DNA of 64,000 bases from Spirochaetaceae bacterium (lineage in GTDB: Bacteria; Spirochaetota; Spirochaetia; DSM-2461), in NCBI GenBank assembly GCA_051531975.1, contig JAOPTT010000006.1, forward strand, positions 384,656-448,655, read 5' to 3'. Shown here piece after piece: positions 11,658 through 43,396 of this stretch (position 1 is its first letter; each line of letters starts with the position of its first letter). The translations under genes were made by a program, and so were the position numbers. Under the pieces are notes generated by a model, which saw nothing but the letters and a program-made list of their open reading frames with translations, had not been told where the DNA came from and did no database searches.

Positions 11658-11664
11658 GTTGTAT

Positions 11665-28881: not shown

Positions 28882-30666
28882 ATGCTTGAAGAAGAGGTTA
28901 TGATATCTGAAATTACTGCTAATGTTATTATTTCACAATTAGAAGTTATGAAAACTTGGTTAAGTGGTAATATTAAAGATTTTTGGGTTAAAAATTTGCA
29001 AAGTTTTAATAGATATTTAACTAAAACATATGAAAAAAATAAAATGACGAAAACCCTTTTGTATAAAGATAAAGCTGTTAATATAAGTGACATTTATATT
29101 AATATCGATTTATCTATAAAAAATAAATCAAAAGTAATAAAAGACACAGAAGTTTTAGATAAAATAGAAGCAGGAAAAAAAATCCTAATCACAGCAAGCG
29201 CAGGTTCAGGTAAATCCTTCTTTGCAAAATTTCTTTTCCTGTCATGTATCGCACGTAAAAATATAATTCCAATCATGATTGAGCTTAGAAATGTAGTAGA
29301 TTTGTGTGAATCAATAATTAGTATTATTACAACTGAACTACAGGATGGTGGAATAAAAATAAGTCTATCTCAAACAGAAGAACTAGTTAACACTTGTAAA
29401 TTCTTAATAATACTTGATGGTTATGATGAGGTTCCTGCAAAACAACTAGAAACATTAAATTCAAATATTATGCAGTTTACTTCTAGAAATACTTCTTGTC
29501 CTTTAATAATTACTAGTCGACCTGATGAACGATTAGAATATTTTAGTCTATTTGAAATATATAAAATAAAACCTCTAAATTTAGATCAAGCGGTAAAGTT
29601 AATAAACAAAATTGATTATCATGAAGACGTTAAACAAAAATTCTTATTAAAGTTAAAATCGGGTAAATTTAACAAACAAAGTGATTTTATTAGTAATCCA
29701 TTATTATTATCAATTTTACTAATGACATTTGAAGAGTTTGCTGATGTACCAGACAAAATGCATATTTTTTATGAAGATGCATTTGATACTTTATATTATA
29801 GGCATGATGTATCAAAAGGAATGTTTCGTAGAGAAGTAAGATCAAAACTAGCTATAGATGATTTTAAAAGTATTCTTTCTTGTATATCATCATCTGGATA
29901 TGTACGTGGAAAACTAAATTATTCAAATACAGAACTAATAGAATATATACGAAAAGCTAAAAAAATAACTGGGATTAACAATTTAAGTCCCGAAAAATAT
30001 AAATTTGACTTATTAACAACAGTTTCACTATTTATACAAGATGGATTGAGATATACGTATAGCCATAGAACCTTTCAAGAATACTTTGCTGCATTATTTA
30101 TAATTAACTTTTCATTTGAGAATAAAATAAAATTGTACTATAAATATATTGAAAGAGGTTCATGGGATAGTGCCTTATTATTAGCTTTTGAAATGAATAG
30201 AGACACTGTAGAAACAGAATTTATATTACCAGAACTTGAAAAAGTATTAAATAAATATGAAAGTGACCCTCTTGGATTATTGGAACATTGGTTTATTAAT
30301 ATATCTTTTAAATGGATTAAATTAGAAAATGGAAAATATAAGCAAAGTTATCGTATTGTGCCACGTAAAACAAATTATGGATTCACATTATTTATTGAAG
30401 AAGCATATCCAAAAGATAAAATTAAGGGTGCACTTTCATACCATAGATTACTTACAAAAAAAAGATTTAAAGTTATTTTCCCAAACTATAAAGACAACAG
30501 ATTTATATCATTTAGAAATCTCAAAGAAATTGATAAAAAAATATTAAAAGATACTGGAATATTAGAATCTACAATTTATAGAATAGAACATATGAAATTA
30601 GTATTGAAACATATAAAACAAAGACATAAACATCGATCTATTAGTAATATTGAGAATTGGTTGTAA
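28882..30666 (+). CDS. NACHT-family STAND NTPase (bacterial NLR-related)
   Basis: Walker A ITASAGSGKS, Walker B LIILDGYDE, IITSRP, NPLLL, winged-helix YSHRTFQEYFAA; ATG at 28882 with GGAGG RBS. Confidence 0.92.
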   Translation: MLEEEVMISEITANVIISQLEVMKTWLSGNIKDFWVKNLQSFNRYLTKTYEKNKMTKTLLYKDKAVNISDIYINIDLSIKNKSKVIKDTEVLDKIEAGKKILITASAGSGKSFFAKFLFLSCIARKNIIPIMIELRNVVDLCESIISIITTELQDGGIKISLSQTEELVNTCKFLIILDGYDEVPAKQLETLNSNIMQFTSRNTSCPLIITSRPDERLEYFSLFEIYKIKPLNLDQAVKLINKIDYHEDVKQKFLLKLKSGKFNKQSDFISNPLLLSILLMTFEEFADVPDKMHIFYEDAFDTLYYRHDVSKGMFRREVRSKLAIDDFKSILSCISSSGYVRGKLNYSNTELIEYIRKAKKITGINNLSPEKYKFDLLTTVSLFIQDGLRYTYSHRTFQEYFAALFIINFSFENKIKLYYKYIERGSWDSALLLAFEMNRDTVETEFILPELEKVLNKYESDPLGLLEHWFINISFKWIKLENGKYKQSYRIVPRKTNYGFTLFIEEAYPKDKIKGALSYHRLLTKKRFKVIFPNYKDNRFISFRNLKEIDKKILKDTGILESTIYRIEHMKLVLKHIKQRHKHRSISNIENWL

Positions 30667-30715
30667 ATTAATAAGTTAGAATCAAGTAAGATCTAATGTG
30701 ATAATTAAAATATAA

Positions 30716-30757
30716 ATCGGGTAGCCAGAGGTTTCTCTCCTCAAGCCCCCACACCAC
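30716..30757 (-). ncRNA. Group IIC intron 3' end (domain VI and the 3' edge of domain V), left part of a split remnant
   Basis: Minus strand reads gtggtgtgggggcttgaggagagaaacctctggctacccgat, typical of a class C intron terminus ending ...ctacccgat. Confidence 0.7.
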
Positions 30758-30786
30758 CATTCTATTACCCACAAATCTGACAACTA

Positions 30787-31100
30787 TTATTCTTTTGACT
30801 CTTGTTTCAAAATGGCAATGTTTACTATTTGTAAATCATTGATTATATTCTGAATCTTGGCATAATTAGCCACCATCTTCCTAACTTCTATTAGTTGTTT
30901 ACGAGGTATATAGACTGTATGAGTTTTTGATTAATATCTTTGTAGGTCAACCGATATGCTTTACTTTTAGATTTTACAGAGCAAATGCATCCAGCTCTGT
31001 TACATGTAGAGCAGACACTTGTAATTGAACCTCTAAGAAAATCCGAACATCCTTCAATTTTACCCAACAGTGATTTTCGTTTTTTTGACAGTTTAATCAT
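30787..31100 (-). pseudogene. Small IS passenger gene (DUF6788-like, Cys cluster), frameshifted
   Basis: LRGSITSVCSTCNRAGCICS...AYRLTYKD; one extra A in the caaaaactc run restores ...QKTHTVYIPRKQLIEVRKMVANY... to a stop at 30787. Confidence 0.6.
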
Positions 31101-31178
31101 TACTAATCCTTACTTTATAGGCAGACGTTTTATATACTTATATTTAGTAAGATTCAACTACTATTCAGGAGGGGATAA

Positions 31179-32630
31179 ATGAGCTGGTCTGACGATGATT
31201 TTAAAGAGATCGATCTAGGTGACAAAAGATTGAATGCAATAATAATCAGGTTATGTGATACTCTCTCCGAATTACCAGAGAGTCCAATAAACCAGGCATG
31301 TGTAGATTAGACTGAGACAAAGGCTACTTATCGTTTATTTCATAACGAAAATGTTGATGCAGACCAAATTATGGCTACTCACCGAAATAAAACTGTAGAA
31401 AGGGCAAGTAAACTAAGTACTGTTCTTGTTATTCAGGATACTAGCTATCTTATTTACACCAGTAATACAAAGACAATAGGATTAGGGACAATATCACTGA
31501 AGAAGGGAGAGAATATCGATAAAATATATTCTCAAGGTCTAGTTATGCATACATGCCTTGCCTTAACTACTTCAGGGACTCCTTTGAGGCTAATCGATCA
31601 GAACATATTTGCTCGACAACTACGTCCAGAAAATCAGCGTCGATCAATGGGAGGAAAGTACATTCAAGATGTTTTACCAGTTGAAAGAAAGGAAAGTTTT
31701 CGTTGGATAAAAGCTTTACAGAAAACGATGAAAACTTCTATTGGTGAGAAGACTGTAACTGTATGTGACAGAGAATGTGATTTTTATGATTTTTTAAAGC
31801 AGCAAAAAACTATTGATACATCAGTTTTGGTACGTGCATTTCAAAATAGGACAATTAATCGGAGCAGTAGATATGCCCAATAAGGTGTACCGAAACTGTG
31901 GGCTTTTATGGAATCTCAACCAGATGCAGGATCATACACTGTAGATATTACTGCAAGAAAGAAGAATAGATACTGCAAAGGTCGAATGGCAAGGAGTGCA
32001 GAAATGCCTGGTATGTTTGCTCCATTTAGAATGAATCCCCACGAAATAATCCCAAGCATAATTCCGAACTACTTCCCGATATCATGATATATGCAATTCA
32101 TGTACTAGAACAGAACCCGCCTGAAGGAGAAAAACCCATAGAATGGATGTTACTTACAAACATACCTGTGACTACCTTGGAAGAGGCATCCGAAAAGGTT
32201 CGCTGGTACTGTTTGCGATGGCGAATAGAGATGTTTTTCAAATTTTAAAAAATCTGGATTTCATGTAGAGGCATACAGATTGGGAACTGCAAACCGTTTA
32301 ATTCGTTATCTAACAGTCATGAGTATTGTAGCATGGAGATTGTTCATGATCACATTGATCGCACGAACTGATCCTTTAATACCATGTTCGGTATTTCTTT
32401 CAGATAGCAAGTGGACGGTATTGGTCCTCAAAGTATTTCGTAATAATATTCTTCCAAAGGAACCACCGACTGTTGCAGATGCTGTTAAATCAATAGCCAT
32501 GCTCGGAGGATATCTGGACAGAAAGAACGATGCTCCACCAGGAATGTTTGTGTTATGGCGAGTTTGGAAGAGATTGATAGATCTAACTGAAGGCTGGAAC
32601 TTAGCATGTAGAATTAATACTTGTGGGTAA
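31179..32630 (+). pseudogene. IS4-family transposase pseudogene
   Basis: MSWSDDDFKEIDLGDKRLN start; in-frame TAG at 31308 and TAA at 31881, later frameshifts; motifs VLVIQDTS, KESFRW, VCDRECD, EWMLLTN, LGGYLDRKNDAPPG. Confidence 0.9.
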
Positions 32631-32637
32631 TAGAATG

Positions 32638-32676
32638 ATCACACCACCCTGCAAGCGGGTCCGCACAGGGTGGTAC
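32638..32676 (-). ncRNA. Group IIC intron domain V-like hairpin, right part of the split remnant
   Basis: Minus strand reads accaccctgtgcggacccgcttgcagggtggtgtg, which joins 30716-30757 once the IS is removed. Confidence 0.7.
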
Positions 32677-32890
32677 TTTTTCATTCCTACTATCTTTAAT
32701 ACCAACAAAAAATACCAGTACAATTATTCTTTTCATCTTGGCTTACTATAAATCTCTATAAAACCCTATCCACTTAAATTCCTCAATAATAAAGCTTGAA
32801 TCACGGGTACTGTTACTATCATTAAAATAAAAGAAGGGACTTCAATGATATTAAGTATTCAGGGATGTATTCAATTCTATCTGGTTTAAA

Positions 32891-33045
32891 AGAGTACATA
32901 CCTTGCGTAAATATAACTAAAGATATGTATACGTAAGATGGTTTGTAGAGTTAATATTTTAATTATCTAGATTACATTATCATTATTAAAATAATAATCT
33001 GTTAGTATAATAATATATATGTAAAACTAGTGATTTGGTATGTTA
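32891..33045 (+). repeat. 155-bp direct repeat, copy 2 (upstream of the TPR-MBL gene)
   Basis: Matches 28559-28713; weaker homology extends upstream (32766-32890 vs 28328-28458). Confidence 0.95.
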
Positions 33046-33094
33046 AATGTACAAAAAAATTAAAATTACGTGAACAAAAGTTTTATCTGATATC

Positions 33095-35350
33095 ATGTGC
33101 GAAATTAAAAGACGAATATTCTGTAGGGAGCATATTTTGAATAAAGAAAATACAATTAAAAAAATAAAAGAATTTTTTTTAACAGAATTAGTTAAGTTAA
33201 ATCGGGATGAAGATAGAATTAAATTATATGATAAAATAATCAAGTTAGCGAAAGATGCTGAATTAGAATCTTATACGCTCTGTTTTGAAGGTTTCAAAGC
33301 CCATTTAAAAAAGGAATATGATAAAGGTATAGAATTTTTTATTCAAACAGTAGCTATTGATGAAACATTTTTATATCCATACATTGGTCTGGGAAATATA
33401 TATTTCGATAAAGAAAGTTATGATGAAGCAATCAATAATTATAATAAAGCAATAAATATAGATAACACAAATGCTACACCAAAGTATAACCTAGGACTAA
33501 TATATACTGAAAAACAAGAATATAACGAAGCGATTAAATACTTCAAAGAATCAATAGATATTGATAATACAAATATATATCAATGGAATGATCTTGGTAA
33601 TGCATATCTAAATATAGAAGACTATACTGAAGCAATTATATGCTATAAGAATTCAATTAAACTAGATGATAAATTCCCATATCCATGGTATGGATTAGGG
33701 AATGTGTATTTAGATTTAAATAATTATAAAGAGTCAATTATATCATTTATGAAAGCAATAGAACTCAATGACAAATTTTCAGATTCATGGTTTGGTGCTG
33801 GAAATGTATATTTTAAAACAAAGCTATATGAGGAATCAATTGAGTATTTTGAAAAGGCAATTGAACTTGATGATAAAGATATATATAAAAATCAAAAAAC
33901 AAATGAATTATTAGAAAAAATTAGAATTTCAACAAAATCAGCAGCTTCTGTTAAAAGTATATCTGAAAATGGTAATAGAATTGGAAGAATACTTGAAAAA
34001 ACAGCCAATATATTTAAATATTCAGAAAATAAGAAAAGTGAGTTCTTAGATTTTATTCAAGAAGAAAAAATTAAATCGACTGATTCAGAATATAATCTAG
34101 AGGTTCTACGTCGCTGGAACTCCTATACTCCTATAGTAGCTAATGACTACCATATTAGTAAAGGAGGAGGTTATTTCATAAAAGCTGGCGGGTATGGTAT
34201 TGTTATTGACCCTGGTTTTAACTTCATAGATAATTTTAAGGGAGCAGGTCATAATTTTAATGAAATTGATGTGGTTATTATATCTCATGCTCACAATGAC
34301 CATACTGCAGATTTGGAATCAATTCTGACTCTTTTATATAAATATAATGATAATATAAAAAAATCGGATGATCCACTAAAAGAGGATACAATCTACAGAA
34401 TCATTGAAAAAAAACAAATAGAAAATAAAGAAGATATAAATAAAGAAATAAGACCTAAGGATATAGAAGATGAGTTCGATAAATCAGGGAGACGCAAGAT
34501 AATTAATATTTTTATGCCTCAGAGTGTATTTAAAAAACATGGAGGTTTGTTTGATCTATTTGAAAGAGCCGACTATCGACCTCGGATTATAGAAAAAGGT
34601 AGAACAGGTATTGAGCTGCTCCCTGATTGTCCTTTAAAAATGGATGTACTGACAGCAAAACACTATGATATTTTATCTGATTATTCATCGGTGGGTATGG
34701 TTTTATATACTGATAATAGCGCTATTGTTTATACAGGAGACACTGGTTGGAGTAATGATATTGAAAAAGAATACAAGGATATTGCTGAAAGTATAAAAGA
34801 CAAAAAATCTGTTCTTATTGCACATTTAGGTGGATTTAAAGAATATGAGAATGAATATGCAAAATATGTCTTGGAAGAAGATTTTTGTAAACAAGAAAAA
34901 TCATATTATAAAAATCACCTAGGTAGAATTGGCGTTGCCAAAGTTGCTGAGATTATAAAACCAACTTTATGTCTAATTTCAGAATTTGGAGAAGAATTTA
35001 AAGGACGTCGTCAGGAGATAGCAGAAATCTACAATGATGCATTTAATATTAAAGATAATACTGAAGATAATATTAATATAAAATTCCTACCAGCAGATAT
35101 TGGACTTATATACCATCTTGAGGATAGTATTACAGATAAAAAAGACAAGGTTAAAGCTATACAAAATATAGATATTGATAATTACAAAACTCCTTTAGTA
35201 GAAGATAATTATGCATTTGTAGATAAGGACAAGATTGAAACTATTCTATTAAGAGATGACTATTCACTTCATTATTACCATAAAGATTTGGTAAAACCAG
35301 AAGAGCTTATCCAGATACTACAAAAAGAATATAGAGATAGTATTAAATAA
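33095..35350 (+). CDS. TPR repeat / metallo-beta-lactamase-fold hydrolase fusion
   Basis: About six TPRs (W.GLGNVY...Y.EAI..Y.KAIELD), then IVIDPG, ISHAHNDH (HxHxDH), YTGDTG, LIAHLG. Confidence 0.9.
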   Translation: MCEIKRRIFCREHILNKENTIKKIKEFFLTELVKLNRDEDRIKLYDKIIKLAKDAELESYTLCFEGFKAHLKKEYDKGIEFFIQTVAIDETFLYPYIGLGNIYFDKESYDEAINNYNKAINIDNTNATPKYNLGLIYTEKQEYNEAIKYFKESIDIDNTNIYQWNDLGNAYLNIEDYTEAIICYKNSIKLDDKFPYPWYGLGNVYLDLNNYKESIISFMKAIELNDKFSDSWFGAGNVYFKTKLYEESIEYFEKAIELDDKDIYKNQKTNELLEKIRISTKSAASVKSISENGNRIGRILEKTANIFKYSENKKSEFLDFIQEEKIKSTDSEYNLEVLRRWNSYTPIVANDYHISKGGGYFIKAGGYGIVIDPGFNFIDNFKGAGHNFNEIDVVIISHAHNDHTADLESILTLLYKYNDNIKKSDDPLKEDTIYRIIEKKQIENKEDINKEIRPKDIEDEFDKSGRRKIINIFMPQSVFKKHGGLFDLFERADYRPRIIEKGRTGIELLPDCPLKMDVLTAKHYDILSDYSSVGMVLYTDNSAIVYTGDTGWSNDIEKEYKDIAESIKDKKSVLIAHLGGFKEYENEYAKYVLEEDFCKQEKSYYKNHLGRIGVAKVAEIIKPTLCLISEFGEEFKGRRQEIAEIYNDAFNIKDNTEDNINIKFLPADIGLIYHLEDSITDKKDKVKAIQNIDIDNYKTPLVEDNYAFVDKDKIETILLRDDYSLHYYHKDLVKPEELIQILQKEYRDSIK

Positions 35351-35440
35351 TATTTGTAATGAATTAAAAGTTATTATATCTTATAATAAACTAGTGTTAA
35401 TAATTAACATTTATTTATGTTAAAAAAGGAGGTAAAGAGT

Positions 35441-35557
35441 ATGGTTTATATAAAGCCCGAAGTTTTGGCAAAAAGTACTATATATATGGCAGAATGCCGT
35501 CCAAATAGTAAGCCAAGTGGAAGACCTTGTAACCCACCAGGTCCAGGTGGAAGATAA
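35441..35557 (+). CDS. Putative RiPP precursor peptide, 38 aa (MVYIKPEVLAKSTIYMAECRPNSKPSGRPCNPPGPGGR), absent from the ORF track
   Basis: Strong AAGGAGGT RBS; YxxP leader motif; two Cys in a Pro/Gly-rich C-terminal half; directly upstream of a radical SAM/SPASM gene. Confidence 0.85.
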   Translation: MVYIKPEVLAKSTIYMAECRPNSKPSGRPCNPPGPGGR

Positions 35558-35565
35558 AAATTTAC

Positions 35566-35600
35566 GGTGACGATTGTAATTTAAATAAACAGTCGTTACC
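35566..35600 (+). promoter_or_regulatory. Stem-loop between precursor and maturase
   Basis: ggtgacgattgt pairs with acagtcgttacc over 12 bp including two G-U pairs. Confidence 0.55.
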
Positions 35601-35620
35601 AACTTACTATGGAGACAATA

Positions 35621-37090
35621 ATGTTTTTCAAACTAAAATCTAATGTTATGTTTAGAAATTATGAATCCTTTGGATATATAACAGATAATAGGAATTTTGG
35701 ATATAAACTAGAAAATACCGAAGATAATAATATTGGAGACAAAATTATTTCTCAAAGTGGATCGTTATTTTATTCAGTATTAGATAAAAAACCACAATCG
35801 TTAGATGAATTAACAGCAAAAATTTATCGCTGCTTTAAAGATATTGACTTTGGAATTATATTGAATGATTCTAAAGAATTTTATTTTATGCTTGAACGTG
35901 ATGGATTTATTATTTCAGGTGAGACACAAGATGAATGTATAAAAAAAGATATCAAATTTTCTTACAAAAAATTAAAACCAGAAATATTAAGAAATGTTTC
36001 GAAATTGATTGAAGTACAACAAGAAAAATTAACACAGGATTTTTTTGAGGAGTATTTTAAAGGAAAACCTCAACTTACAAGTATTCATATGGAAATAATA
36101 AGTAAATGCAATGAAAGATGTATACACTGTTATATCCCTCATGATAAGAAAGTAAATGTTATGGAATCTGATTTATTTTATGATATACTAGAACAATGTA
36201 AGAAAATGAAGCTATTACATATAACTATCACTGGTGGAGAACCAATGATGCATAAGAATTTCTGTAATTTCTTAAGAAAATGTAATGAATATGGTTTCTC
36301 AGTTAATGTTCTAAGTAATTTAACATTACTTAATGAAGAAATAATTACAGAAATTAAGCAAAATCCTCTTTTAGGTGTTCAAGTATCACTATATTCAATG
36401 GATTCAAGTATTCATGATGAAATAACACAAGTGACAGGAAGTTTTGAAAAAACAACAAAATCAATTTTGAAACTCATAGAAAATGATATTCCTCTACAAA
36501 TAAGCTGTCCTATCTTAAAACAAAATAAAAACTGTTATGATAATGTTAGAATGTGGGCACAAAAACATAAAATTCATGTCGGAGCTGATTTTGTTATATT
36601 TGGAAAGTATGATAATAATACAGAAAACCTGAGTAACCGTTTATCAATTGATGAAATAGGAGAAGTAATAACTGAAATATCAAATAAAGATATAAATTAT
36701 TTAGATCAATTAAAAAAAGAAGCTGAAGAAAAAAAAGATATATCAGCTAACGATAAAGTATGTAGTATTTGTCATTCTTCATTATGTATCTCAGAGAATG
36801 GGATTGCGTACCCATGTGCAGGTTGGCAAGGTTATATTTTAGGTAATTTAAATGAAACCTCACTTAATGAGATTTGGACTAATTCAAATAAAATCGAATA
36901 TTTAAGGGGTTTATGTAAAAACGATTTTCATAAATGCCTAAAATGCTCAGACAAAGAATATTGTACTATGTGTATGGTGAGAAATGCAAATGAACATCCA
37001 AATGGTGATCCATTAGTTGTTAATGATTTTTTCTGTAATATAGCTAAACTAAATAAAAAAATAGTACTAGAAAGAAATATACTCATTTAA
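35621..37090 (+). CDS. Radical SAM/SPASM peptide maturase with an N-terminal PqqD/RRE-like domain
   Basis: CNERCIHC (CX3CX2C), TGGEP, SPASM cysteines CSIC...AYPC and CLKC..KEYCTMC...FC; ~100-aa N-terminal extension (D..EF..ML..DGFI); start at the ATG at 35621 with GGAG RBS. Confidence 0.9.
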   Translation: MFFKLKSNVMFRNYESFGYITDNRNFGYKLENTEDNNIGDKIISQSGSLFYSVLDKKPQSLDELTAKIYRCFKDIDFGIILNDSKEFYFMLERDGFIISGETQDECIKKDIKFSYKKLKPEILRNVSKLIEVQQEKLTQDFFEEYFKGKPQLTSIHMEIISKCNERCIHCYIPHDKKVNVMESDLFYDILEQCKKMKLLHITITGGEPMMHKNFCNFLRKCNEYGFSVNVLSNLTLLNEEIITEIKQNPLLGVQVSLYSMDSSIHDEITQVTGSFEKTTKSILKLIENDIPLQISCPILKQNKNCYDNVRMWAQKHKIHVGADFVIFGKYDNNTENLSNRLSIDEIGEVITEISNKDINYLDQLKKEAEEKKDISANDKVCSICHSSLCISENGIAYPCAGWQGYILGNLNETSLNEIWTNSNKIEYLRGLCKNDFHKCLKCSDKEYCTMCMVRNANEHPNGDPLVVNDFFCNIAKLNKKIVLERNILI

Positions 37091-37461
37091 ATAATTCTCA
37101 TAGAATTGGAATAACCCTTAGTATTGACTCAACTATAAATGTCAAGCCATTTTATGTTTCCTACAACGCGGTTCGTTCAGTGACCTCTTTATAGTCGATT
37201 TCAATCCATTGTTTCTACAAAGCAAAGTCATAATTGACAATATAGGGTATTATTTAAAAATTATAGGATTATGCAATAGCAAGAGATTCTTGTAAATAAT
37301 ATTTAATATAAAGCTTTATAGCTCTAAATTTTTCTTAGTAAGTATACATGTACAAACTCCTTAAAGTACAGATTTTTGTCCGCATCTCCATATGGGGAAA
37401 AGCATTTTCCATTTCCAAAGTTTACAGGGTAGTATGAATAACCTGGAAACGGCAAGTCCTT

Positions 37462-37641
37462 TTACTCACCTAATATAAAAAAATAATCCTCCTTCCTTTG
37501 TATCATGCTATAAGAATCTCCACTAAGGGAGAAAACTCTAGCATGGTGTAAAAGTTGATCTAACATGGCCGTTGTCATTATCTCATCATCCATAATTTCA
37601 GACCACTGATCGAATCCTGTATTTGATGTAATAATAATCAA
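37462..37641 (-). pseudogene. istB: IS21-family istB helper ATPase, C-terminal fragment
   Basis: Minus-strand translation LIIITSNTGFDQWSEIMDDEIMTTAMLDQLLHHARVFSLSGDSY matches the IstB C-terminal consensus; no start or Walker A upstream. Confidence 0.8.
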
Positions 37642-37752
37642 TGTTGTGGATATAAATCAGGTCTCCAGAGCTTTATCCTATGAAACTGTTGATTTAGCAA
37701 CTAACAGGGTAAATTGAATATTTATATCCAAGTGCATAATTCTGTAATTTCC

Positions 37753-37860
37753 CAAATATAACTTTAGTTATGTATACGATTGTTGGATTATACAAGTAAT
37801 ATAAATGAATACTAAATATATAACAATCTAGAATATAAAAAGGCATACGATAAACTAGGG
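37753..37860 (+). repeat. Degenerate third copy of the leader repeat (upstream of rmuC)
   Basis: caaatataactttagttatgtatacg (37753-37778) matches 28576-28601 at 23/26; downstream ataacaatct and aaactaggg echo ataataatct and aaactagtg. Confidence 0.6.
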
Positions 37861-38008
37861 ATATAATTTAGGTGAATTATATTTGGGAATTGATTTATAT
37901 GGTAATGGTTATGTAACACACACAAATTTTGTTTTAATAGTTTTCTGTGAGTTGCCTTTCCAGATTGATATGTAGAAAACATCAGAAATTATATTTATTG
38001 GAGTTAAA

Positions 38009-39691
38009 ATGGTTGAAGGAATTATTTATGTTGTTGTAGGTATACTAGTAGGATCTGTGATTGGTTGGTTATCATGCAAATTAATACAGAGTAAATTATA
38101 TTCTAATAAAACAAGCAATGATCTTAATAAAATTCTAGTATTAGAAAAGGAATTATCAACTAACCAGGCTAATTTAATTACAACAAAAGAAGCTCTAGAT
38201 GATCAAATAAAGATTACTAGTGAAAAGCAGATTGAAATTGATTTAATAAAAGAAGATATCGCAGAAATAAGAACTAAAATAACACAAATGAATGCTGAAA
38301 AAGAATACTCAGATAAAAAGTTGAAAGATAATATAAAAGTAAATGAACAACTTGACCAAGAGTATAAATCCAATATTGAGATAATAAATAATGCTAATAT
38401 TATAATCTCAACGAAAGATGGAGAAAATAAAGCATTAAGTTTAGAAATAGAAAATTTAAAAGCTTATTTATTTGATAAAAAGAATGAGATTACAGAGATA
38501 AAAAATGAAATTAAAGAGATTACTAATTCTGCTAATATTCAAAATATTGATCTTGCAGCATCCCTAGCTGAAAATAGTTCGTTAAATGATAAACTCAAGA
38601 ATCAAAAAAAAGAAATTGAAGAAATTGGAACAAAATTTAAACTAGAATTTGAAAATATTGCTTCTAAGATTCTAGAGACAAATACAGAAAAGTTTACAGA
38701 GATAAACAAAACTAATATTAAGGGAATACTAGATCCCCTTTCCACAAATTTAGAACAGTTCAAAAATAAAATTAATGAAACTTACGATAAAGAATCGAAA
38801 GAGCGATTTTCATTAGGTGAAAAAGTAAAAGAATTAGCTAGTTTAAATAAGATAATCAGTGAAGAAGCAAAAAATCTTACAAACGCACTAAAAGGTGACT
38901 CGAAAACTCAAGGACGTTGGGGTGAAATGATTTTAGAAAGTATTTTAGAACGTTCAGGTCTAACCAAGGATCAAGAATATTTTGTAGAATATCAGCTAGA
39001 AGATTCGGAAGGTAATCCCTTAAAGTCTGAATCTGAAAATAAAAAAATGCGTCCAGATGTGGTTATAAAATACCCAGATAATAGATGTATTATAATTGAT
39101 TCAAAGGTTTCACTAAATTCTTTTGTAAGATATATGTCTTCCGATAATTTAGAAGAGCAAAAGAAAGAACTAGATGACCATATAAAAGCTGTAAAAACCC
39201 ATATTATTTCATTGAGTAAAAAGGGTTATGATGATTATGACCAATCATTAGATTTTGTAATGATGTTTATTCCAAATGAACCTGCATATATGGCTGCACT
39301 TAAAGGTGATCCTGATTTGTGGAATTTTGCTTATGATAAAAGAATCCTACTAATAAACCCTACAAATCTAATAATATCATTAAAACTAATAGTTGATTTA
39401 TGGAAGAGAGAATATCAAAATAAGAACGCACAAGACATAGCTGAAAGAGGTGCAAAACTTTACGATAAGTTTGTTGGTTTTTTAACTAACTTTTCAAATA
39501 TTGAAAAATATTTAGATAAATCTAAGGAGGCATATAACTCCTCCTTAAAACAATTAAATACAGGTAACGATAATTTAATAATTCAAACTACAAAATTAAA
39601 AAATCTAGGAATAAAAAACAAAAAATCACTACCAGAAAATTTTATACAAAAAAACGATCAAAATATGTTGATTGATAATAAACAAAATTAA
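38009..39691 (+). CDS. rmuC: RmuC-family protein with N-terminal TM helix and coiled coil
   Basis: LTNALKGDSKTQGRWGEMILE, RPDVVIKYP...IIDSKVSL (PD-(D/E)xK-like), LDFVMMFIPNE. Confidence 0.93.
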   Translation: MVEGIIYVVVGILVGSVIGWLSCKLIQSKLYSNKTSNDLNKILVLEKELSTNQANLITTKEALDDQIKITSEKQIEIDLIKEDIAEIRTKITQMNAEKEYSDKKLKDNIKVNEQLDQEYKSNIEIINNANIIISTKDGENKALSLEIENLKAYLFDKKNEITEIKNEIKEITNSANIQNIDLAASLAENSSLNDKLKNQKKEIEEIGTKFKLEFENIASKILETNTEKFTEINKTNIKGILDPLSTNLEQFKNKINETYDKESKERFSLGEKVKELASLNKIISEEAKNLTNALKGDSKTQGRWGEMILESILERSGLTKDQEYFVEYQLEDSEGNPLKSESENKKMRPDVVIKYPDNRCIIIDSKVSLNSFVRYMSSDNLEEQKKELDDHIKAVKTHIISLSKKGYDDYDQSLDFVMMFIPNEPAYMAALKGDPDLWNFAYDKRILLINPTNLIISLKLIVDLWKREYQNKNAQDIAERGAKLYDKFVGFLTNFSNIEKYLDKSKEAYNSSLKQLNTGNDNLIIQTTKLKNLGIKNKKSLPENFIQKNDQNMLIDNKQN

Positions 39692-39702
39692 TTAGGGGTT
39701 AT

Positions 39703-40173
39703 ATGAAATATATATTACAAGCTAAAAGTAGCTCAGGGAAACCATACAAAGTAGAGATTGGTGAAAGTAATGGTTTAATGACTGCTAAGTGCAGTTGTCC
39801 TGCTGGTGTATGGGGAAAGTTATGTAAACATAAAATGAACCTATTAAAAGGTGATCAGACATTTTTATTTGATATTTCAGAACTAGATACACTAAAAGAA
39901 GTTGAAGTAAAAGTTAGAAATAGTTCCTTGTATGATTTAATTGAAAAAGTTGATATTTCGACTAAGTGCGTGAAAATAATAGAAGCAAAGAAGAAAAAAG
40001 ATCAAAAGAAACTATTAGATAAAATGACAACAAGTAATATTGAACTAGAACTTGATACATTTAAATTAGCGTATTCAGATATTGCTGAATTAGAGATAGA
40101 ACTTGCTTTTAATAAATATGTTGTTTCACGTTATAAATCAGATGTTGAGACTAAATTTAAAGTAGGTTTTTAA
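39703..40173 (+). CDS. SWIM zinc-finger protein
   Basis: SSSGKPYKV...CSCPAG...LCKH (CxC-xn-CxH). Confidence 0.85.
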   Translation: MKYILQAKSSSGKPYKVEIGESNGLMTAKCSCPAGVWGKLCKHKMNLLKGDQTFLFDISELDTLKEVEVKVRNSSLYDLIEKVDISTKCVKIIEAKKKKDQKKLLDKMTTSNIELELDTFKLAYSDIAELEIELAFNKYVVSRYKSDVETKFKVGF

Positions 40174-40197
40174 TTTATTGGAATAGAGGATTATAAT

Positions 40198-41058
40198 ATG
40201 ATGGATTTGAATAATAAAATTGATATTGAAAAATATAAAGAAATACAGAGACGATATACTGAAAAAGTTACAGTTATAGTTAATAAGGGTAAAGAAAAAG
40301 AAAGACATGAAGTTGTGACAGATTTACCAGAACCTAGTTTCAAGGAATGGAAAGTATCAGTTATTAACAATGATGGTTTAGGTAATATTTTAATAAGTAA
40401 GTGTGTATATGGGGAATCACGCTCTACAATAAAAAAGAAGTTATATTCATCAGAGTCATGGACTATTCTTTGTGATTGCCGTAATAAGGGTGAATTTGGT
40501 TTGTTTTGTAACCATAAGAAGGAAATTGCTCAGTTAAATTTTAATAACATAATAGGTTGGAATCCAGTTATACAAAAATATGTGGATAGTTGTAAGAATG
40601 ATATAGTAGATAAAAATCTTATATACTTACCAACTGATATTACAGAACCTTATATCAGATATTTAAAAATGAATAAGTTAATAGGCGATGTGAAGACCGA
40701 GGAAAAAAGCAAAATCATTTTAGACATTGGTTTACTTGGGTTTACTAGTCTACCTCAATTTAAAAACTTTATATTATACTTCTCTCTCAATAAATCATTA
40801 AATAAAGAGAGTGATATTAAAATAGAACCAGCTGATATCCATCAGTATATAAAATCACCAAAATTTAATAACTTCATCGATTTAAAACAATTTGTTGATA
40901 TGAGATTAGGACAAACTATAAGGTTTAACATACTTAATGAAAAGTTAGAGAAATTAGAAAATAAATTGGGTGTAAATATAGAAGAATTCGAGACAATTAA
41001 AGAAATTAAATTAGATTTTTGGAACTTCGGAGATGATATTAATAAGCACTATATTTAA
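40198..41058 (+). CDS. Hypothetical protein with a SWIM-like zinc finger
   Basis: CDCRNKGEFGLFCNHK motif. Confidence 0.65.
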   Translation: MMDLNNKIDIEKYKEIQRRYTEKVTVIVNKGKEKERHEVVTDLPEPSFKEWKVSVINNDGLGNILISKCVYGESRSTIKKKLYSSESWTILCDCRNKGEFGLFCNHKKEIAQLNFNNIIGWNPVIQKYVDSCKNDIVDKNLIYLPTDITEPYIRYLKMNKLIGDVKTEEKSKIILDIGLLGFTSLPQFKNFILYFSLNKSLNKESDIKIEPADIHQYIKSPKFNNFIDLKQFVDMRLGQTIRFNILNEKLEKLENKLGVNIEEFETIKEIKLDFWNFGDDINKHYI

Positions 41059-41087
41059 GATTAGAAATATATACTAAAGAGGTAGCA

Positions 41088-42398
41088 ATGAGTTATATCA
41101 TCATCATAGAAGCGTTAGTTATACTAATATTATTTGTTTTATTAGTAGTAACATTGATTGGTAAGTTTAAGATCAAAAAGAAATATTCACCTATTATTGA
41201 TATGGAAAAAGAAGTCAATAAAAGGTTAAAAGAAAAAAAATATGCTGAAATGGAAATTGAAGATCTTAGAACATCATATAAAGAGAAAAGAATAATATAT
41301 GATCAATTAGTACAAGAAGCAGCAATATATAATGAACAAATTGAATTAGCAGAGTTAGGTTTTTATTCTCCACAATACTCTTATGATACATCTGAAAAAA
41401 TTAAAGATACCATTGATAATGTAAAAAATAAACAAAAGTTAATGATAAAAGATAAAAGTGCTATTTATTGTAATACAGAGTGGACTGTAGAAGGTAGTAA
41501 AGCTAAAGGTAGAACAATGACTAATAGAAATATTAGGATGACAGCTAGAGCTTTCAATAACGAATGTGATTCAGCCATTTCCAGTACGAAATGGAATAAC
41601 GTATCAAGAATGGTTTCTAGAATTGAAAAAGCTTTTAGTGCAATTAACAAACTTAACGATTCCAATAAAATATATATTTCACCTGAATATTTATCTCTAA
41701 AGTTGGAGGAGCTAACCCTAACTCACGAATATAAAGAAAAAAAACAAGAAGAGAAAGAAGAACAAGCAGAATTAAAACGTCAAATGAAAGAAGAAGCTAA
41801 AATAGTTAAAGAAGCTGAGATAGCTGAAAAAGAGCTCTTAAAACAAGAAGAACTATTAAATAAAATAAGAAGAGAAGTAGAAGATGCTACAGGTGACAAA
41901 TTAAATCAACTGCAAAAACAAATTAACGATTATGAAGACGAAATAGAAAAGAACAAACGAAAAATATCATTAGCTCAACAAACTAAAAGAGGTGTAGTTT
42001 ATATAATTTCAAATATTGGATCATTTGGAGATAATATATATAAGATTGGAATGACTAGAAGAGAGGATCCAATGGAAAGAGTAAAGGAATTAAGCAGTGC
42101 TAGTGTTCCTTTTTCATTTGATATTCATGCTAAAATTAAGTCGGAAGATGCTCCAGCGTTAGAAAAATCACTACATAAGATATTTAAAGATAAACGAGTC
42201 AATTTAGTAAATAATCGTAAAGAATTTTTCAATGTTAACTTTGATAAAATCAGAAAAGAAGTTGATCAATTAGAGCTTAATGCAGAAATATTTGAAACAA
42301 TTGAAGCTAGGGAATATCGTGAAACCCAGGCATTACGTAAGGAAAAAGTATTAATTGAAAATGAGAAGAATACTGTAGAACTACCACAAAGCATCTAA
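41088..42398 (+). CDS. TM-DUF4041-T5orf172 (GIY-YIG-like) nuclease, PD-lambda-1/SNIPE-like architecture
   Basis: N-terminal TM helix; WTVEGSKAKG...RAFNNECD (DUF4041); GVVYIISNIGSFG..YKIGMTRR.DP.ERVKELSSASVPFSFDIH and RKEFF. Confidence 0.9.
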   Translation: MSYIIIIEALVILILFVLLVVTLIGKFKIKKKYSPIIDMEKEVNKRLKEKKYAEMEIEDLRTSYKEKRIIYDQLVQEAAIYNEQIELAELGFYSPQYSYDTSEKIKDTIDNVKNKQKLMIKDKSAIYCNTEWTVEGSKAKGRTMTNRNIRMTARAFNNECDSAISSTKWNNVSRMVSRIEKAFSAINKLNDSNKIYISPEYLSLKLEELTLTHEYKEKKQEEKEEQAELKRQMKEEAKIVKEAEIAEKELLKQEELLNKIRREVEDATGDKLNQLQKQINDYEDEIEKNKRKISLAQQTKRGVVYIISNIGSFGDNIYKIGMTRREDPMERVKELSSASVPFSFDIHAKIKSEDAPALEKSLHKIFKDKRVNLVNNRKEFFNVNFDKIRKEVDQLELNAEIFETIEAREYRETQALRKEKVLIENEKNTVELPQSI

Positions 42399-42454
42399 AA
42401 AGGCAGGGATTTGCTAGGAGAAATTATTATATTATTTAACAATGGGGGAATCAA

Positions 42455-43396
42455 TTGCCATACGACTTAACTAAAAGATTAGTAATTGGGTTATCATCAA
42501 GTGCGCTTTTTGATCTACAGGATGCTGATTATATCTTTAGAACTAAAGGTGAAGAAAGCTATAGAGAGTACCAATTTACAAATAAAAATATCCCACTAAG
42601 TAAAGGTGTTGCTTTTCCTTTTATTAGAAGATTATTGCAATTAAATAAGTTAAGGCCAGATGATCCTCTGGTTGAAGTTATACTTATGTCTAGAAATGAC
42701 CCTGATACAGGACTAAGAGTAATGAACTCAATAGAGCATTATGGCTTGGGTATTACTAGGGCTATTTTTACACAAGGAAGATCTCCTAAAAAATTCATAC
42801 CAGCTTTTGATATAGAACTATTTTTATCTTCTAGTTCCACTGATGTAAATGAAGCTACTCTCGCAGGTTACCCTGCAGGTCAAATATTAACAAACTCAAC
42901 GATAAATATAGTAGATGATGAAGTTGATAAAGAATTAAGAATTGCATTCGACTTTGATGGTGTTATTGCTGATGATGAATCTGAAAAAGTTTTAAAAGAA
43001 CATAATAATCTTAATGAATTTCATGAACATGAAATATTGAATAATGATAAATCACATAATCCAGGTCCATTAAAAAAATTTTTAGAAAGGATTTCCTATA
43101 TACAGAAATTGGAACTTGAAAAGAAAAAGGTAGATTCTTCATATATTCCAATGTTAAGGATTTCAATAGTGACAGCTAGAAATGCACCCTCACATAAGAG
43201 AGTTATTCAAACAATGAGAGATTGGAATATAATGATAAATGAAGCTTATTTTATGGGTGGTATTGCTAAAAACAATGTTCTTGAAGTACTTAGACCTCAT
43301 ATTTATTTTGATGACCAAAAATTACATTTAGATCCAAGTTCTAAAGTCTTTACTTCAGTACACATCCCTTTTGGGGTTACAAATTCAAAATTATAA
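42455..43396 (+). CDS. 5'-nucleotidase (cytosolic IMP/AMP-type HAD family)
   Basis: LVIGLSSSALFDL, LRIAFDFDGVIADDESE, VTARNAPSH.R, PHIYFDDQ; TTG start with GGGGG RBS. Confidence 0.9.
   Translation: MPYDLTKRLVIGLSSSALFDLQDADYIFRTKGEESYREYQFTNKNIPLSKGVAFPFIRRLLQLNKLRPDDPLVEVILMSRNDPDTGLRVMNSIEHYGLGITRAIFTQGRSPKKFIPAFDIELFLSSSSTDVNEATLAGYPAGQILTNSTINIVDDEVDKELRIAFDFDGVIADDESEKVLKEHNNLNEFHEHEILNNDKSHNPGPLKKFLERISYIQKLELEKKKVDSSYIPMLRISIVTARNAPSHKRVIQTMRDWNIMINEAYFMGGIAKNNVLEVLRPHIYFDDQKLHLDPSSKVFTSVHIPFGVTNSKL

What the first reader, a model, noticed from the sequence alone, without database searches (positions are those of the whole stretch)
35441..37090. Unannotated 38-aa precursor plus RRE-radical SAM/SPASM maturase: candidate new RiPP class inside a defence-like island
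Seen: AAGGAGGT RBS, then MVYIKPEVLAKSTIYMAECRPNSKPSGRPCNPPGPGGR, followed 63 bp later by a CX3CX2C/SPASM enzyme with an N-terminal RRE-like domain. Established: YxxP leader motifs bind RREs, and rSAM-SPASM enzymes install thioether (sacti/ranthipeptide) or C-C crosslinks. The core is unusual: two Cys (C19, C30), no aromatic residue after Y15, and Pro/Gly/Arg rich; I cannot match it to a family I know. No protease or exporter is adjacent and the neighbours are defence-like. Inference: an intracellular modified peptide, possibly linked to defence or signalling.
Basis: partly seen in the sequence, partly recalled or inferred. Interest (0 to 1): 0.88.

Follow-up and report, generated by a model that had tools for sequence, protein, structure and literature searches.

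The report
Mobile radical-SAM peptide cassette, uncharacterised family
A real but unannotated 38-residue peptide gene sits beside the radical-SAM enzyme that most likely cross-links it, and this two-gene unit, with an almost unchanged peptide, travels between bacterial phyla on plasmids, transposons and phage-defence islands, though its chemistry and role are unknown.

Summary

**The peptide is a real gene.**
- The same leader-plus-core peptide lies upstream of the enzyme in 73 of 80 homologous loci.
- Core residues 16-33 are invariant in 18 distinct versions, although their codons differ.
- A complex model docks leader residues 3-16 on the enzyme's N-terminal domain (ipSAE 0.74; best control 0.01).

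**It matches no named family.**
- Neither protein reaches any Pfam or NCBIfam family-specific threshold.
- Six literature searches found no description.

**Context.**
- The window's clade has no conserved neighbour: no protease, exporter or immunity gene. The TPR-MBL gene is not a partner.
- The clade mixes at least five phyla at 55-70% identity.
- It sits on conjugative plasmids beside Tn3-family genes, near integrases, and in defence islands (12 of 24 loci).
- Sister clades add a UvrA-like ATPase plus a second rSAM, or an amidohydrolase.

**Reading.** The most likely chemistry is thioether links from the two invariant cysteines. This is inferred, not shown. A defence role is suggested by context only.

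This scan found the same cassette earlier on other DNA (e1-2457450).

**Verdict:** a new family of a known kind.

The parts
35426..35433 (+). Ribosome-binding site AAGGAGGT, 7 nt before the precursor's ATG
   Evidence: Read directly. It lies inside the longer ORF that starts at 35417, which argues for the start at 35441; homologous peptides also start M-x-Y.
35441..35557 (+). Precursor peptide gene, 38 aa. Leader is about residues 1-16 (M-x-Y-x-K-P-x-V-L-A...). Core is residues 17-38, with invariant A17, C19 and C30.
   Evidence: Translation. Found upstream of the enzyme in 73 of 80 loci. Core residues 16-33 are invariant with 2-5 codons each, except the single-codon Met16, in 18 distinct versions. 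P6, A17, C19 and C30 are invariant across 46 peptides of three classes. It is the only copy in the window's own genome. The only contig of an RNA-library run from the same sample that laid on 34900-37400 covers 35413-35738 (weak, because DNA carry-over is not excluded).
35566..35600 (+). Intercistronic hairpin: 12-bp stem, 11-nt loop
   Evidence: -16.6 kcal/mol, z -3.57, 0 of 200 shuffles fold as well. A 10-16 bp hairpin follows the precursor stop codon in all 31 same-clade loci folded, with differing stem sequences; z is -3 or lower in 27 of 31.
35611..35614 (+). GGAG ribosome-binding site of the maturase gene
   Evidence: Read. Homologues start at MFFK.
35621..37090 (+). Radical SAM/SPASM peptide maturase, 489 aa from MFFK. 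The N-terminal RRE-like domain is about 35621-35953. The radical SAM core with CX3CX2C is about 36074-36598. The SPASM domain with seven conserved Cys is about 36761-37036.
   Evidence: Pfam Radical_SAM and SPASM. AF2 model pLDDT 93.8, pTM 0.92. Structural matches to CteB, anSME, ChlB, SuiB and SkfB at Z 25-27; the SuiB alignment spans residues 6-478, including the N-terminal domain. Cys conservation. Leader docking on residues 21, 28-29, 40-54, 75-98 and 139-145.
33095..35350 (+). TPR + metallo-beta-lactamase-fold protein. It is an upstream neighbour and not part of the conserved unit.
   Evidence: Pfam TPR repeats plus Lactamase_B_2. No MBL domain among the 127 scanned neighbours of 24 same-clade loci; TPR-only proteins are adjacent in L005, L006 and L012.

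Best explanation
This is a genuine two-gene RiPP cassette from a family that has not been described. The 38-aa precursor is translated from its own strong RBS. Its first ~16 residues (nearly invariant M-x-Y-x-K-P-x-V/I-L-A) act as a leader that lies as a beta-strand against the RRE (PqqD-like) domain at the N-terminus of the adjacent radical SAM/SPASM enzyme. That presents the 22-residue Pro/Gly/Arg-rich core to the active site. The enzyme then most likely joins each of the two invariant cysteines (C19, C30) to a carbon of another residue, forming sacti/ranthipeptide-type thioethers at -2 Da per link. A conserved hairpin between the genes probably keeps precursor mRNA in excess over enzyme mRNA. 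No protease, exporter or immunity gene belongs to the unit, so the product probably stays in the cell with its leader attached. The unit is horizontally mobile cargo: conjugative plasmids beside Tn3-family genes, integrase-bearing elements and defence islands. It therefore probably acts in conflicts between hosts, phages and other mobile elements. My odds by step: the peptide is the enzyme's substrate, about 0.9 (shown by co-conservation and docking). The family is uncharacterised, about 0.75. The chemistry is thioether, about 0.5 (inferred). The product is intracellular and unprocessed, about 0.5 (inferred). It has a defence or conflict role, about 0.3 (context only).
For: The precursor lies upstream on the same strand in 73 of 80 loci. 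The core is under purifying selection: residues 16-33 are invariant at protein level with 2-5 codons each, except the single-codon Met16; pairwise codon differences are 2048 synonymous against 1249 non-synonymous. P6, A17, C19 and C30 are invariant in 46 peptides of three classes. The complex model gives ipSAE 0.74 (runs 0.73, 0.74, 0.77) against a best control of 0.01. That mark was reached by 116 of 157 solved complexes and 2 of 215 mismatched pairs. Partner pLDDT is at least 47 and contact agreement at least 44%. Peptide residues 8-10 pair with enzyme strand 45-48. The architecture is RRE + rSAM + SPASM. The best sequence match in the PDB is the thioether-forming SkfB at E 1e-13. CteB ties for the top structural score at Z 27.2. 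The hairpin is present in 31 of 31 loci folded. No gene cluster other than the enzyme is shared among same-clade loci. Mobility: 0 of 40 related genomes carry the enzyme, 9 of 401 genomes of the phylum carry the peptide, and phyla are mixed in the enzyme tree. Seven conjugative plasmids carry the enzyme; the unannotated peptide was confirmed in the three records fetched, and Tn3 transposase plus resolvase lie next to it in the E. coli record. PADLOC hits at E<=1e-20 occur in 12 of 24 same-clade loci, 31 of 127 neighbour proteins, and in the window itself.
Against: No chemistry is shown. anSME, which oxidises Cys to formylglycine, ties with CteB in structural score, and SuiB, which forms a C-C link, is Foldseek's top hit. 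The fold therefore does not choose the reaction. The docking pass may reflect likeness to solved leader-RRE complexes such as SuiB-SuiA and CteB-CteA. The core's position in the active site is not confidently modelled and the partner's own pLDDT is low. Pfam PqqD does not hit the window's enzyme at E<=0.1; it is precomputed for only 11 of the 120 listed homologues. The defence association is guilt by association. At the locus level it is not significantly stronger than for the sister clades (12/24 against 7/21, p 0.37). The protein-level test (31/127 against 12/148, p 2e-4) counts non-independent genes. No genome-wide background rate was measured. Ten or so same-clade loci lie among ordinary metabolic genes. 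The expression evidence is one 326-nt contig of depth 3.4 from an RNA library of the probable source sample.
Confidence: 0.6

Rival explanations
1. Same cassette, different chemistry. The enzyme does not make thioethers. It might oxidise one or both cysteines (anSME-like formylglycine, -18 Da per Cys, giving a reactive peptide aldehyde), make C-C or C-O cross-links, or epimerise residues.
For: anSME ties with CteB at Z 27.2, SuiB (Lys-Trp C-C link) is Foldseek's best hit, and the epimerase EpeE also matches. In the window's clade both cysteines are followed by x-Pro (C-R-P, C-N-P), which recalls the C-x-P-x-R site of sulfatases; that motif is recalled, not tested here. No NCBIfam thioether-maturase model reaches its cut-off.
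Against: anSMEs have no RRE and act on folded-protein targets (recalled). The C-x-P pattern is not kept in the sister classes (C-G-D, C-P-A), whereas the two cysteines themselves are invariant. The core has no aromatic residue for streptide-type links. The best sequence match is the thioether enzyme SkfB.
Confidence: 0.25
2. The product is an exported bacteriocin or signalling peptide that uses general host export and processing. The defence and mobile neighbours are then incidental cargo sharing the same hotspots.
For: Most characterised rSAM-SPASM RiPPs are secreted antimicrobials or signals (established knowledge). Mobile islands collect many kinds of cargo. The sister clades also sit near defence genes in 7 of 21 loci.
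Against: No exporter, peptidase or immunity gene is conserved next to the pair in 24 loci. The core is nearly invariant across phyla, unlike the diversifying cores usual for bacteriocins. There is no double-glycine or signal-peptide feature in the 16-residue leader.
Confidence: 0.2
3. The pair is a stabilisation (addiction-like) module of mobile elements. The modified peptide, or the unmodified one, is harmful to cells that lose the element.
For: In the E. coli IncF plasmid the pair lies directly after the Tn3-family resolvase gene. That is the place where toxin-antitoxin pairs lie in Tn3-family transposons, according to the title and abstract of PMC7157771 seen in the listing. Seven of seven plasmid records are conjugative. 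ParA/ParB or integrases are adjacent in several loci.
Against: There is no evidence of toxicity or of differential stability. An enzyme-substrate pair is not a known addiction design. Many loci are chromosomal islands without plasmid or transposon genes.
Confidence: 0.1
4. In this genome the TPR-MBL protein works with the cassette as a three-gene system, for example as a hydrolase that processes the peptide or as a sensor.
For: Same strand, 90 bp upstream. TPR-only proteins lie directly beside the enzyme in L005, L006 and L012.
Against: No MBL domain among the 127 scanned neighbours of 24 same-clade loci. The cluster that links these proteins rests on TPR repeat similarity only. The peptide has its own RBS, and the RNA-library contig starts after the TPR-MBL gene.
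Confidence: 0.08
5. The small ORF is not a substrate but a regulatory upstream ORF or a chance ORF.
For: It is unannotated in public records. A hairpin follows it, as in attenuators.
Against: The amino-acid sequence is conserved with synonymous codon change over phyla. The profile finds it at E 1e-18 in the window's own genome and nowhere else there. The docking passes its controls.
Confidence: 0.03

Closest known systems
CteB/CteA (thermocellin) and SCIFF-type ranthipeptide cassettes
   Same: A short precursor lies directly upstream of an RRE + radical SAM + SPASM maturase. CteB has the top structural score (Z 27.2, rmsd 3.6 over 316 residues). The core is cysteine-based.
   Different: The precursor has two cysteines, not six, and matches no NCBIfam or Pfam peptide model. 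The enzyme is far below the cut-offs of PapB, StsB and other thioether maturases. The core is Pro/Gly/Arg-rich. The unit is a free-standing mobile pair in defence and mobile-element contexts.
SkfB/SkfA (sporulation killing factor, sactipeptide-like thioether)
   Same: Best sequence match among solved structures (E 1e-13). Structural Z is 24.9 over residues 12-458, including the N-terminal domain. One enzyme makes a Cys-to-carbon thioether on a short peptide.
   Different: Identity is about 19% in the structural alignment. The NCBIfam SkfB model scores 57 bits against a cut-off of 300. The skf operon has export, immunity and other genes (recalled); here there are none.
SuiB/SuiA (streptide, Lys-Trp cross-link)
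   Same: Foldseek's best hit (E 1.8e-17), aligned over the whole length including the RRE. The solved complex shows leader binding like that modelled here.
   Different: The core here has no Trp or any aromatic residue, so streptide chemistry is not possible.
Anaerobic sulfatase-maturing enzyme (anSME)
   Same: The radical SAM + SPASM core matches at Z 27.2. It acts on a cysteine followed by x-Pro (recalled).
   Different: anSME has no RRE, and its substrates are sulfatase proteins, not a dedicated co-encoded peptide.
Prokaryotic viperins (pVip), the known radical SAM defence enzymes
   Same: Radical SAM core similarity (PADLOC pVip E 5e-18 over residues 159-307). Both occur in defence islands.
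   Different: Viperins have no SPASM domain, no RRE and no peptide substrate. The NCBIfam viperin model scores 54 bits against a cut-off of 180.

Membership tests
RRE-dependent radical SAM/SPASM RiPP maturase with cognate precursor | CX3CX2C radical SAM cluster motif | tested here: met
   C167, C171 and C174 are invariant in 99 of 99 aligned relatives. Pfam Radical_SAM E 4e-18.
RRE-dependent radical SAM/SPASM RiPP maturase with cognate precursor | C-terminal SPASM domain with the seven-cysteine motif for two auxiliary clusters | tested here: met
   Pfam SPASM E 2e-7, above its cut-off. C385, C403, C443, C446, C452, C455 and C476 are each kept in 95-98 of 99 sequences.
RRE-dependent radical SAM/SPASM RiPP maturase with cognate precursor | N-terminal RiPP recognition element (PqqD-like winged helix) that binds the leader | tested here: met
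   The model has four short beta-strands and three to four helices in residues 6-113. The SuiB alignment spans 6-478. The leader docks on strand 44-47 and helix 81-97, ipSAE 0.74 against 0.01. Against: Pfam PqqD gives no hit at E<=0.1 on this protein and is recorded for 11 of 120 homologues.
RRE-dependent radical SAM/SPASM RiPP maturase with cognate precursor | Co-encoded short precursor conserved together with the enzyme | tested here: met
   73 of 80 loci. Five of the seven misses lack upstream DNA.
Sactipeptides / ranthipeptides (thioether RiPPs) | Cysteine sulfur linked to the alpha, beta or gamma carbon of another residue in the mature peptide | not testable with these tools
   Needs MS/MS and NMR of the product. 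Only the two invariant cysteines are shown here.
Sactipeptides / ranthipeptides (thioether RiPPs) | Enzyme belongs to a curated thioether-maturase family (AlbA, SkfB, StsB, PapB and others) | tested here: not met
   All are below their cut-offs: SkfB 57 against 300, StsB 58 against 625, PapB 53 against 340, AlbA 51 against 850 bits.
SCIFF (six cysteines in forty-five) ranthipeptide precursors | Precursor of about 45 residues with six cysteines that matches the curated peptide model | tested here: not met
   Two cysteines in 38 residues. No NCBIfam or Pfam hit even at E 10.
Anaerobic sulfatase-maturing enzymes | Stand-alone rSAM-SPASM without RRE that acts on the C/S-x-P-x-R site of sulfatases | tested here: not met
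   An RRE domain and a dedicated peptide are present. No anSME model is among the 25 best NCBIfam hits. The core has C-x-P but no Arg at position +4.
Anti-phage defence system | Recurrent placement among known defence genes | tested here: inconclusive
   12 of 24 same-clade loci and 31 of 127 neighbour proteins hit PADLOC at E<=1e-20. The window has PD-Lambda-1 and PDC-S08. But sister clades show 7 of 21 loci, locus-level p is 0.37, and no genome background was measured.
Anti-phage defence system | Protection against phage when expressed | not testable with these tools
   Needs plaque assays.
Anti-phage defence system | Matches a model of a known or candidate system | tested here: not met
   Only generic pVip hits on the radical SAM core (E 5e-18, residues 159-307) in PADLOC-DB v2.0.0.

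The most novel reading that the evidence does not exclude
The pair is a self-contained, horizontally mobile immune or conflict module of a new type. A radical-SAM-cross-linked, leader-retaining, Pro/Arg-rich peptide is made inside the cell and directly blocks an invader's or the cell's own machinery. One candidate target is translation, by analogy with proline-rich antimicrobial peptides that plug the ribosome. Another is DNA transactions, as hinted by the UvrA-like ATPase tied to the sister clade. If so, it would be the first radical-SAM RiPP defence system, and its near-invariant core across phyla would reflect a universally conserved target.
Probability: 0.2. Interest if true: 0.9.

Novelty: new variant of a known kind. 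Interest (0 to 1): 0.68.

Why it matters
Radical SAM/SPASM RiPPs are a well-known kind, but this family has unusual properties for one:

- It is only two genes.
- Its core is almost frozen across at least five phyla.
- It has no export, protease or immunity genes.
- It lives on plasmids, transposons and defence islands.

That combination points away from the usual secreted-antibiotic role and towards an intracellular function in conflicts between genomes. Chemical (small-molecule or peptide) immunity is only beginning to be recognised in that area.

The family is also easy to test. The unit is 1.65 kb. Natural versions exist on E. coli conjugative plasmids. The expected mass shifts are simple.

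The sister clades give further handles on the target of the products. One is tied to a UvrA-like ATPase and a second radical SAM enzyme. The other is tied to an amidohydrolase.

Finally, the precursor gene is unannotated in the public records examined. Standard annotation therefore hides the system.

Tried and rejected
1. **Curated families.** Pfam and NCBIfam scans of the window's peptide and of seven relatives at E up to 10 gave no hit.
2. **ESM Atlas.** No usable hit for the peptide. Only generic 'radical SAM/SPASM' clusters for the enzyme.
3. **First structure job.** The 30-sequence alignment was too shallow (pLDDT 54). It was replaced by a 99-sequence alignment.
4. **Literature.**
   - Searches used these term sets: SPASM/RiPP/UvrA; SPASM/anti-phage/defence island/precursor peptide; core motifs as text; Tn3/radical SAM/passenger gene; radical SAM/RiPP/phage defence; ranthipeptide/Bacteroid/mobile element.
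   - None described this family.
   - The one paper opened (10.64898/2026.08.04.741601, passages only) concerns grasp-with-SPASM graspetides on Porphyromonas ICEs, a different system.
5. **Phage records.** 0 of 50,697 matched by tblastn at E 1e-40.
6. **E. coli complete genomes.** Megablast with the plasmid version found no match.
7. **Rfam.** Nothing on 26000-47000.
8. **Promoter scan.**
   - No + strand site ahead of the peptide at the tool's thresholds.
   - A TATAAT at 35382-35387 is visible by eye, but it has no good -35 element.
9. **TPR-MBL as a partner.** Rejected, because it is not conserved.
10. **Auxiliary-cluster ligands.** I tried to read an open coordination site from Cys conservation. 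C300 is kept in 85 of 99 sequences and C393 in 60 of 99, so no conclusion was possible.
11. **RNA-library coverage.** Beyond 35413-35738 there is none. Contigs cannot show absence of transcription, so I draw nothing from it.
Full report
**1. The observation**

- AAGGAGGT lies at 35426-35433.
- An ATG at 35441 opens a 38-codon ORF that ends at 35557. Its translation is exactly the peptide quoted, with Cys19, Cys30 and no aromatic residue after Tyr15.
- The next gene has a possible start at 35609. All homologues begin at the MFFK that starts at 35621, and GGAG precedes it at 35611-35614. The spacer is therefore the stated 63 bp.
- The enzyme has CX3CX2C (C167/C171/C174), Pfam Radical_SAM (E 4e-18) and SPASM (E 2e-7).
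- No NCBIfam model reaches its cut-off. The best, heme b synthase, scores 92 bits against 500. The thioether maturases SkfB, StsB, PapB and AlbA score 51-58 bits against cut-offs of 300-850.

**2. Is the small ORF a gene?**

*Relatives of the enzyme.* A word-indexed search found 2837 proteins with E<=0.001 among the 7999 candidates scored. The 120 best are 51-70% identical, apart from the window's own protein. Of these, 590 encode a relative, and 80 loci were kept.

*The peptide recurs.* In 73 of those 80 loci a short ORF with the same leader lies upstream on the same strand. A motif scan found 72 and the ORF list found L001. Of the seven without it:
- five have no upstream DNA, or under 310 nt of it (L012, L013, L051, L063, L066);
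- two have upstream DNA but no match (L055, L079).

*Selection on the peptide.* I extracted 33 peptides of the window's type. Eighteen are 38 aa long and all differ in DNA. In these, residues 16-33 are invariant or nearly so at protein level. Each position except the single-codon Met16 uses 2-5 different codons. Pairwise codon differences are 2048 synonymous against 1249 non-synonymous, and the non-synonymous ones fall mostly in the leader's variable positions and near the C-terminus.

*One copy per genome.* A profile of 46 peptides finds one copy in the window's genome, at E 1.4e-18, in this place.

*Expression.* The only contig of an RNA-library run from the same sample as the probable source that laid on 34900-37400 covers 35413-35738. 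That is the peptide gene, the hairpin and the first 118 nt of the enzyme gene. This is a weak hint only: depth is 3.4 and DNA carry-over is not excluded.

**3. Peptide classes and gene sets**

The peptides share the leader but fall into three core types.

| Class | Core (as printed by the tools) | Conserved neighbours | Loci among the 80 |
|---|---|---|---|
| A (the window's) | ...M-A-E-C-R-P-N-S-K-P-S-G-R-P-C-N-P-P-x-P-G-G-R | none | 25 counted in the tree |
| B | three cysteines, C-G-D-G-P-C-G-R-P-C | UvrA-like ATPase of about 780 aa, then a second radical SAM/SPASM enzyme of about 350 aa without RRE | 15 |
| C | G-S-Y-A-A-G-C-P...C-x-x-C | Amidohydro_2 protein of about 250 aa | 29 |

- Across all 46 aligned peptides P6, A17, C19 and C30 are invariant, and M1, Y3 and K5 nearly so.
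- In a FastTree of 76 enzymes, classes B and C are each well-supported clades (support 100). They arise from a short-branched grade of class A.
- Two database proteins of about 825 aa fuse a second rSAM-SPASM module to the N-terminus of the RRE-bearing enzyme.

**4. The enzyme and leader recognition**

*Model.* With a diverse 99-sequence alignment (from the representatives, aligned) AlphaFold2 gives pLDDT 93.8 and pTM 0.92.

*Structural matches.*
- Foldseek's best PDB hits are SuiB (E 1.8e-17), CteB, anSME, TigE and SkfB.
- VIA-align gives CteB Z 27.2, anSME 27.2, ChlB 26.7, SuiB 26.5 (aligned over residues 6-478, so including the N-terminal domain) and SkfB 24.9 (residues 12-458).
- A profile search of PDB sequences puts SkfB first, at E 1e-13.

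*Cluster ligands.* The seven SPASM cysteines are each kept in 95-98 of 99 relatives.

*Complex.* A model of enzyme plus peptide, using alignments for both chains, passes its controls.
- ipSAE is 0.74 (runs 0.73, 0.74, 0.77) against a best control of 0.01.
- That mark was reached by 116 of 157 solved complexes and 2 of 215 mismatched pairs.
- Partner pLDDT is at least 47, and the runs agree in at least 44% of contacts.
- Confident contacts involve peptide residues 1 and 3-16, and enzyme residues 21, 28-29, 40-51, 53-54, 75-79, 83-94, 98 and 139-145.
- V8-L9-A10 pair with strand 45-48. K5 and P6 pack against helix residues 87 and 91.

This is the classical leader-RRE mode. Because such complexes are solved (SuiB-SuiA, for example), the pass shows likeness rather than independent proof. 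The core is not confidently placed.

**5. The hairpin**

A 12-bp stem at 35566-35600 follows the precursor stop (-16.6 kcal/mol, z -3.57, 0 of 200 shuffles fold as well).
- All 31 class-A loci whose intergenic region I could delimit have a 10-16 bp hairpin at the same place. Stem sequences differ. z is -3 or lower in 27 of 31.
- The four exceptions are the window under this cruder mononucleotide shuffle, L020, and two loci with long inserts.
- In the plasmid versions a T-run follows the hairpin.

I infer that it sets the precursor-to-enzyme ratio by partial termination or mRNA stabilisation, as in many bacteriocin operons. That comparison is established knowledge, not tested here.

**6. Mobility**

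- The enzyme was not found in any of 40 related genomes searched (E<=1e-50).
- The peptide profile hits 9 of 401 genomes sampled from the phylum, the window's own genome included.
- Class A enzymes of Bacteroidota, Bacillota, Thermodesulfobacteriota, Pseudomonadota and Verrucomicrobiota intermix on short branches. The window's nearest row is from a Bacillota MAG (support 91).
- Seven of 72,556 plasmid records carry the enzyme at about 51% identity: five E. coli, one Salmonella, one Photobacterium. All seven are typed conjugative.
- In all three plasmid records fetched, the unannotated peptide lies 75-78 bp upstream.
- In the E. coli IncF record the pair follows a Tn3-family transposase and resolvase. 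A fragment of the resolvase gene is repeated downstream of the pair.
- Four IMG/VR contigs carry it. One has Mor-family regulators and DUF2730, which I recall as Mu-like features. Three have tyrosine integrases.
- No GenBank phage record matched.

**7. Defence context**

*The window.* The pair lies in a stretch (about 27.6-43.4 kb) with these genes:
- a cNMP-binding protein that hits TIR-effector models;
- a NACHT ATPase;
- a Tn5 transposase fragment;
- the TPR-MBL gene;
- RmuC;
- PD-Lambda-1 (E 2e-153);
- PDC-S08 (E 9e-133).

- Thirty-one proteins in 12 loci hit PADLOC at E<=1e-20.
- The hits include a CBASS cyclase with a TIR-STING effector, a type III-A retron, a UG5 DRT with SngABC, Shedu, an AbiLi hit, an AriA-type ATPase, type I and IIG restriction systems and several PDC candidates.
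- Others lie beside integrases, ParAB or relaxase-like genes. About ten lie among metabolic genes.

*Control.* I scanned 148 of 186 neighbours of 21 class B and C loci, leaving four loci out whole. Twelve proteins in seven loci hit.
- The protein-level contrast is 31/127 against 12/148: odds ratio 3.7, p 2e-4. Genes within a locus are not independent.
- The locus-level contrast is 12/24 against 7/21: p 0.37, not significant.
- No genome-wide background was measured.

The association is therefore real as a description. As evidence of function it is only suggestive.

**8. What it is and how it most likely works**

*Shown:*
- a conserved precursor-maturase pair;
- a leader motif that the model docks on the RRE;
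- two invariant cysteines and an invariant alanine in the core;
- a conserved intercistronic hairpin;
- no other conserved gene;
- horizontal spread.

*Inferred:*
- The enzyme cross-links the cysteines to carbon atoms (thioethers). Reasons: the cysteines are the only universally conserved reactive residues, the core lacks aromatics, and the closest sequence relative among solved enzymes is a thioether synthase. The fold alone cannot exclude anSME-type oxidation or other radical chemistry.
- The product stays in the cell with its leader on, because no protease or exporter travels with the pair.
- It serves in host-phage-mobile-element conflict, from context only.

**9. Comparison with the known, and novelty**

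It works like CteB, SkfB or SuiB-type RiPP maturation. It is not a member of any curated family of those enzymes or of SCIFF precursors.

PADLOC-DB v2.0.0 has no model for it beyond generic viperin-core similarity. Six full-text searches found no description. Subscription-journal RiPP atlases and their supplements were not searchable, so a prior listing as an unnamed cluster cannot be excluded.

An earlier report of this scan (e1-2457450) described the same cassette on another genome and reached the same general reading. I reproduced its claims independently on this window's data.

I rate it a new variant (family) of a known kind. It stands out for its minimal gene set, its frozen core and its mobile, defence-island lifestyle.

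Noticed in passing
L004:537-973, L017:5363-6006, L081:4953-5218: In three class-A loci (a Pseudodesulfovibrio MAG, Sodalis sp., and an IMG/VR contig) a 266-644 nt insert sits between the precursor and the maturase. The inserts share a conserved 5' module (a hairpin, then a stretch containing TTTGAC and an AAGCCTCTG...CAAGAGG inverted repeat) and a conserved 3' part. No Rfam family matches. It could be a small mobile element or a regulatory RNA.
   Followed up: partly
L081:1-58 and L081:1018-1089: Two type II hammerhead ribozymes (68.6 and 46.5 bits; gathering score 37) on the IMG/VR contig that also has Mor-family genes and the cassette.
   Followed up: no
L035, L037, L049, L053-L061, L063, L065, L076 (class B loci): Sister clade with a fixed four-gene order: three-cysteine precursor, RRE-rSAM-SPASM, a UvrA-like ATPase of about 780 aa (NCBIfam UvrA 707 bits, below the 1147 cut-off), then a second rSAM-SPASM of about 350 aa. 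I recall that UvrA paralogues give self-resistance to DNA-binding natural products, so the product may target DNA.
   Followed up: partly
29 class C loci, e.g. L073:5798-5917 plus the downstream gene: Sister clade, mostly Treponema and Clostridia. The precursor has G-S-Y-A-A-G-C-P...C-x-x-C, and an Amidohydro_2-type protein of about 250 aa always lies after the maturase. Some loci add another rSAM upstream.
   Followed up: partly
P0005, P0006 (database proteins, about 825 aa): Natural fusions of an RRE-less rSAM-SPASM module to the N-terminus of the RRE-bearing maturase. These are Rosetta-stone support that the two enzymes of class-B-like loci act together.
   Followed up: no
L085:6088-8832 (E. 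coli IncF plasmid): The cassette lies right after a Tn3-family resolvase gene. A 38-aa fragment resembling the middle of that resolvase is repeated about 280 bp downstream of the maturase. This suggests insertion or recombination at the resolvase region.
   Followed up: partly
window 11665-26316 (-): A single ORF of 4883 aa, flanked by a DUF3160 protein at 9225-11672. Not examined.
   Followed up: no
window 27613-43396: Defence-like island around the cassette. It holds a cNMP-binding protein that hits TIR-effector and Pycsar models (27613-28140), a NACHT ATPase (28870-30666), a Tn5 transposase fragment (32280-32630), RmuC (38009-39691), two ORFs with no Pfam hit (39703-40173, which hits PADLOC PDC-S62 at E 1e-5, and 40198-41058), PD-Lambda-1 (41088-42398) and the PDC-S08 5'-nucleotidase (42455-43396).
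   Followed up: partly
window 31000-33000: GC content rises to 0.36 against about 0.27 around it, at the Tn5 fragment and the small ORFs. This is probably a remnant of a foreign insertion.
   Followed up: no
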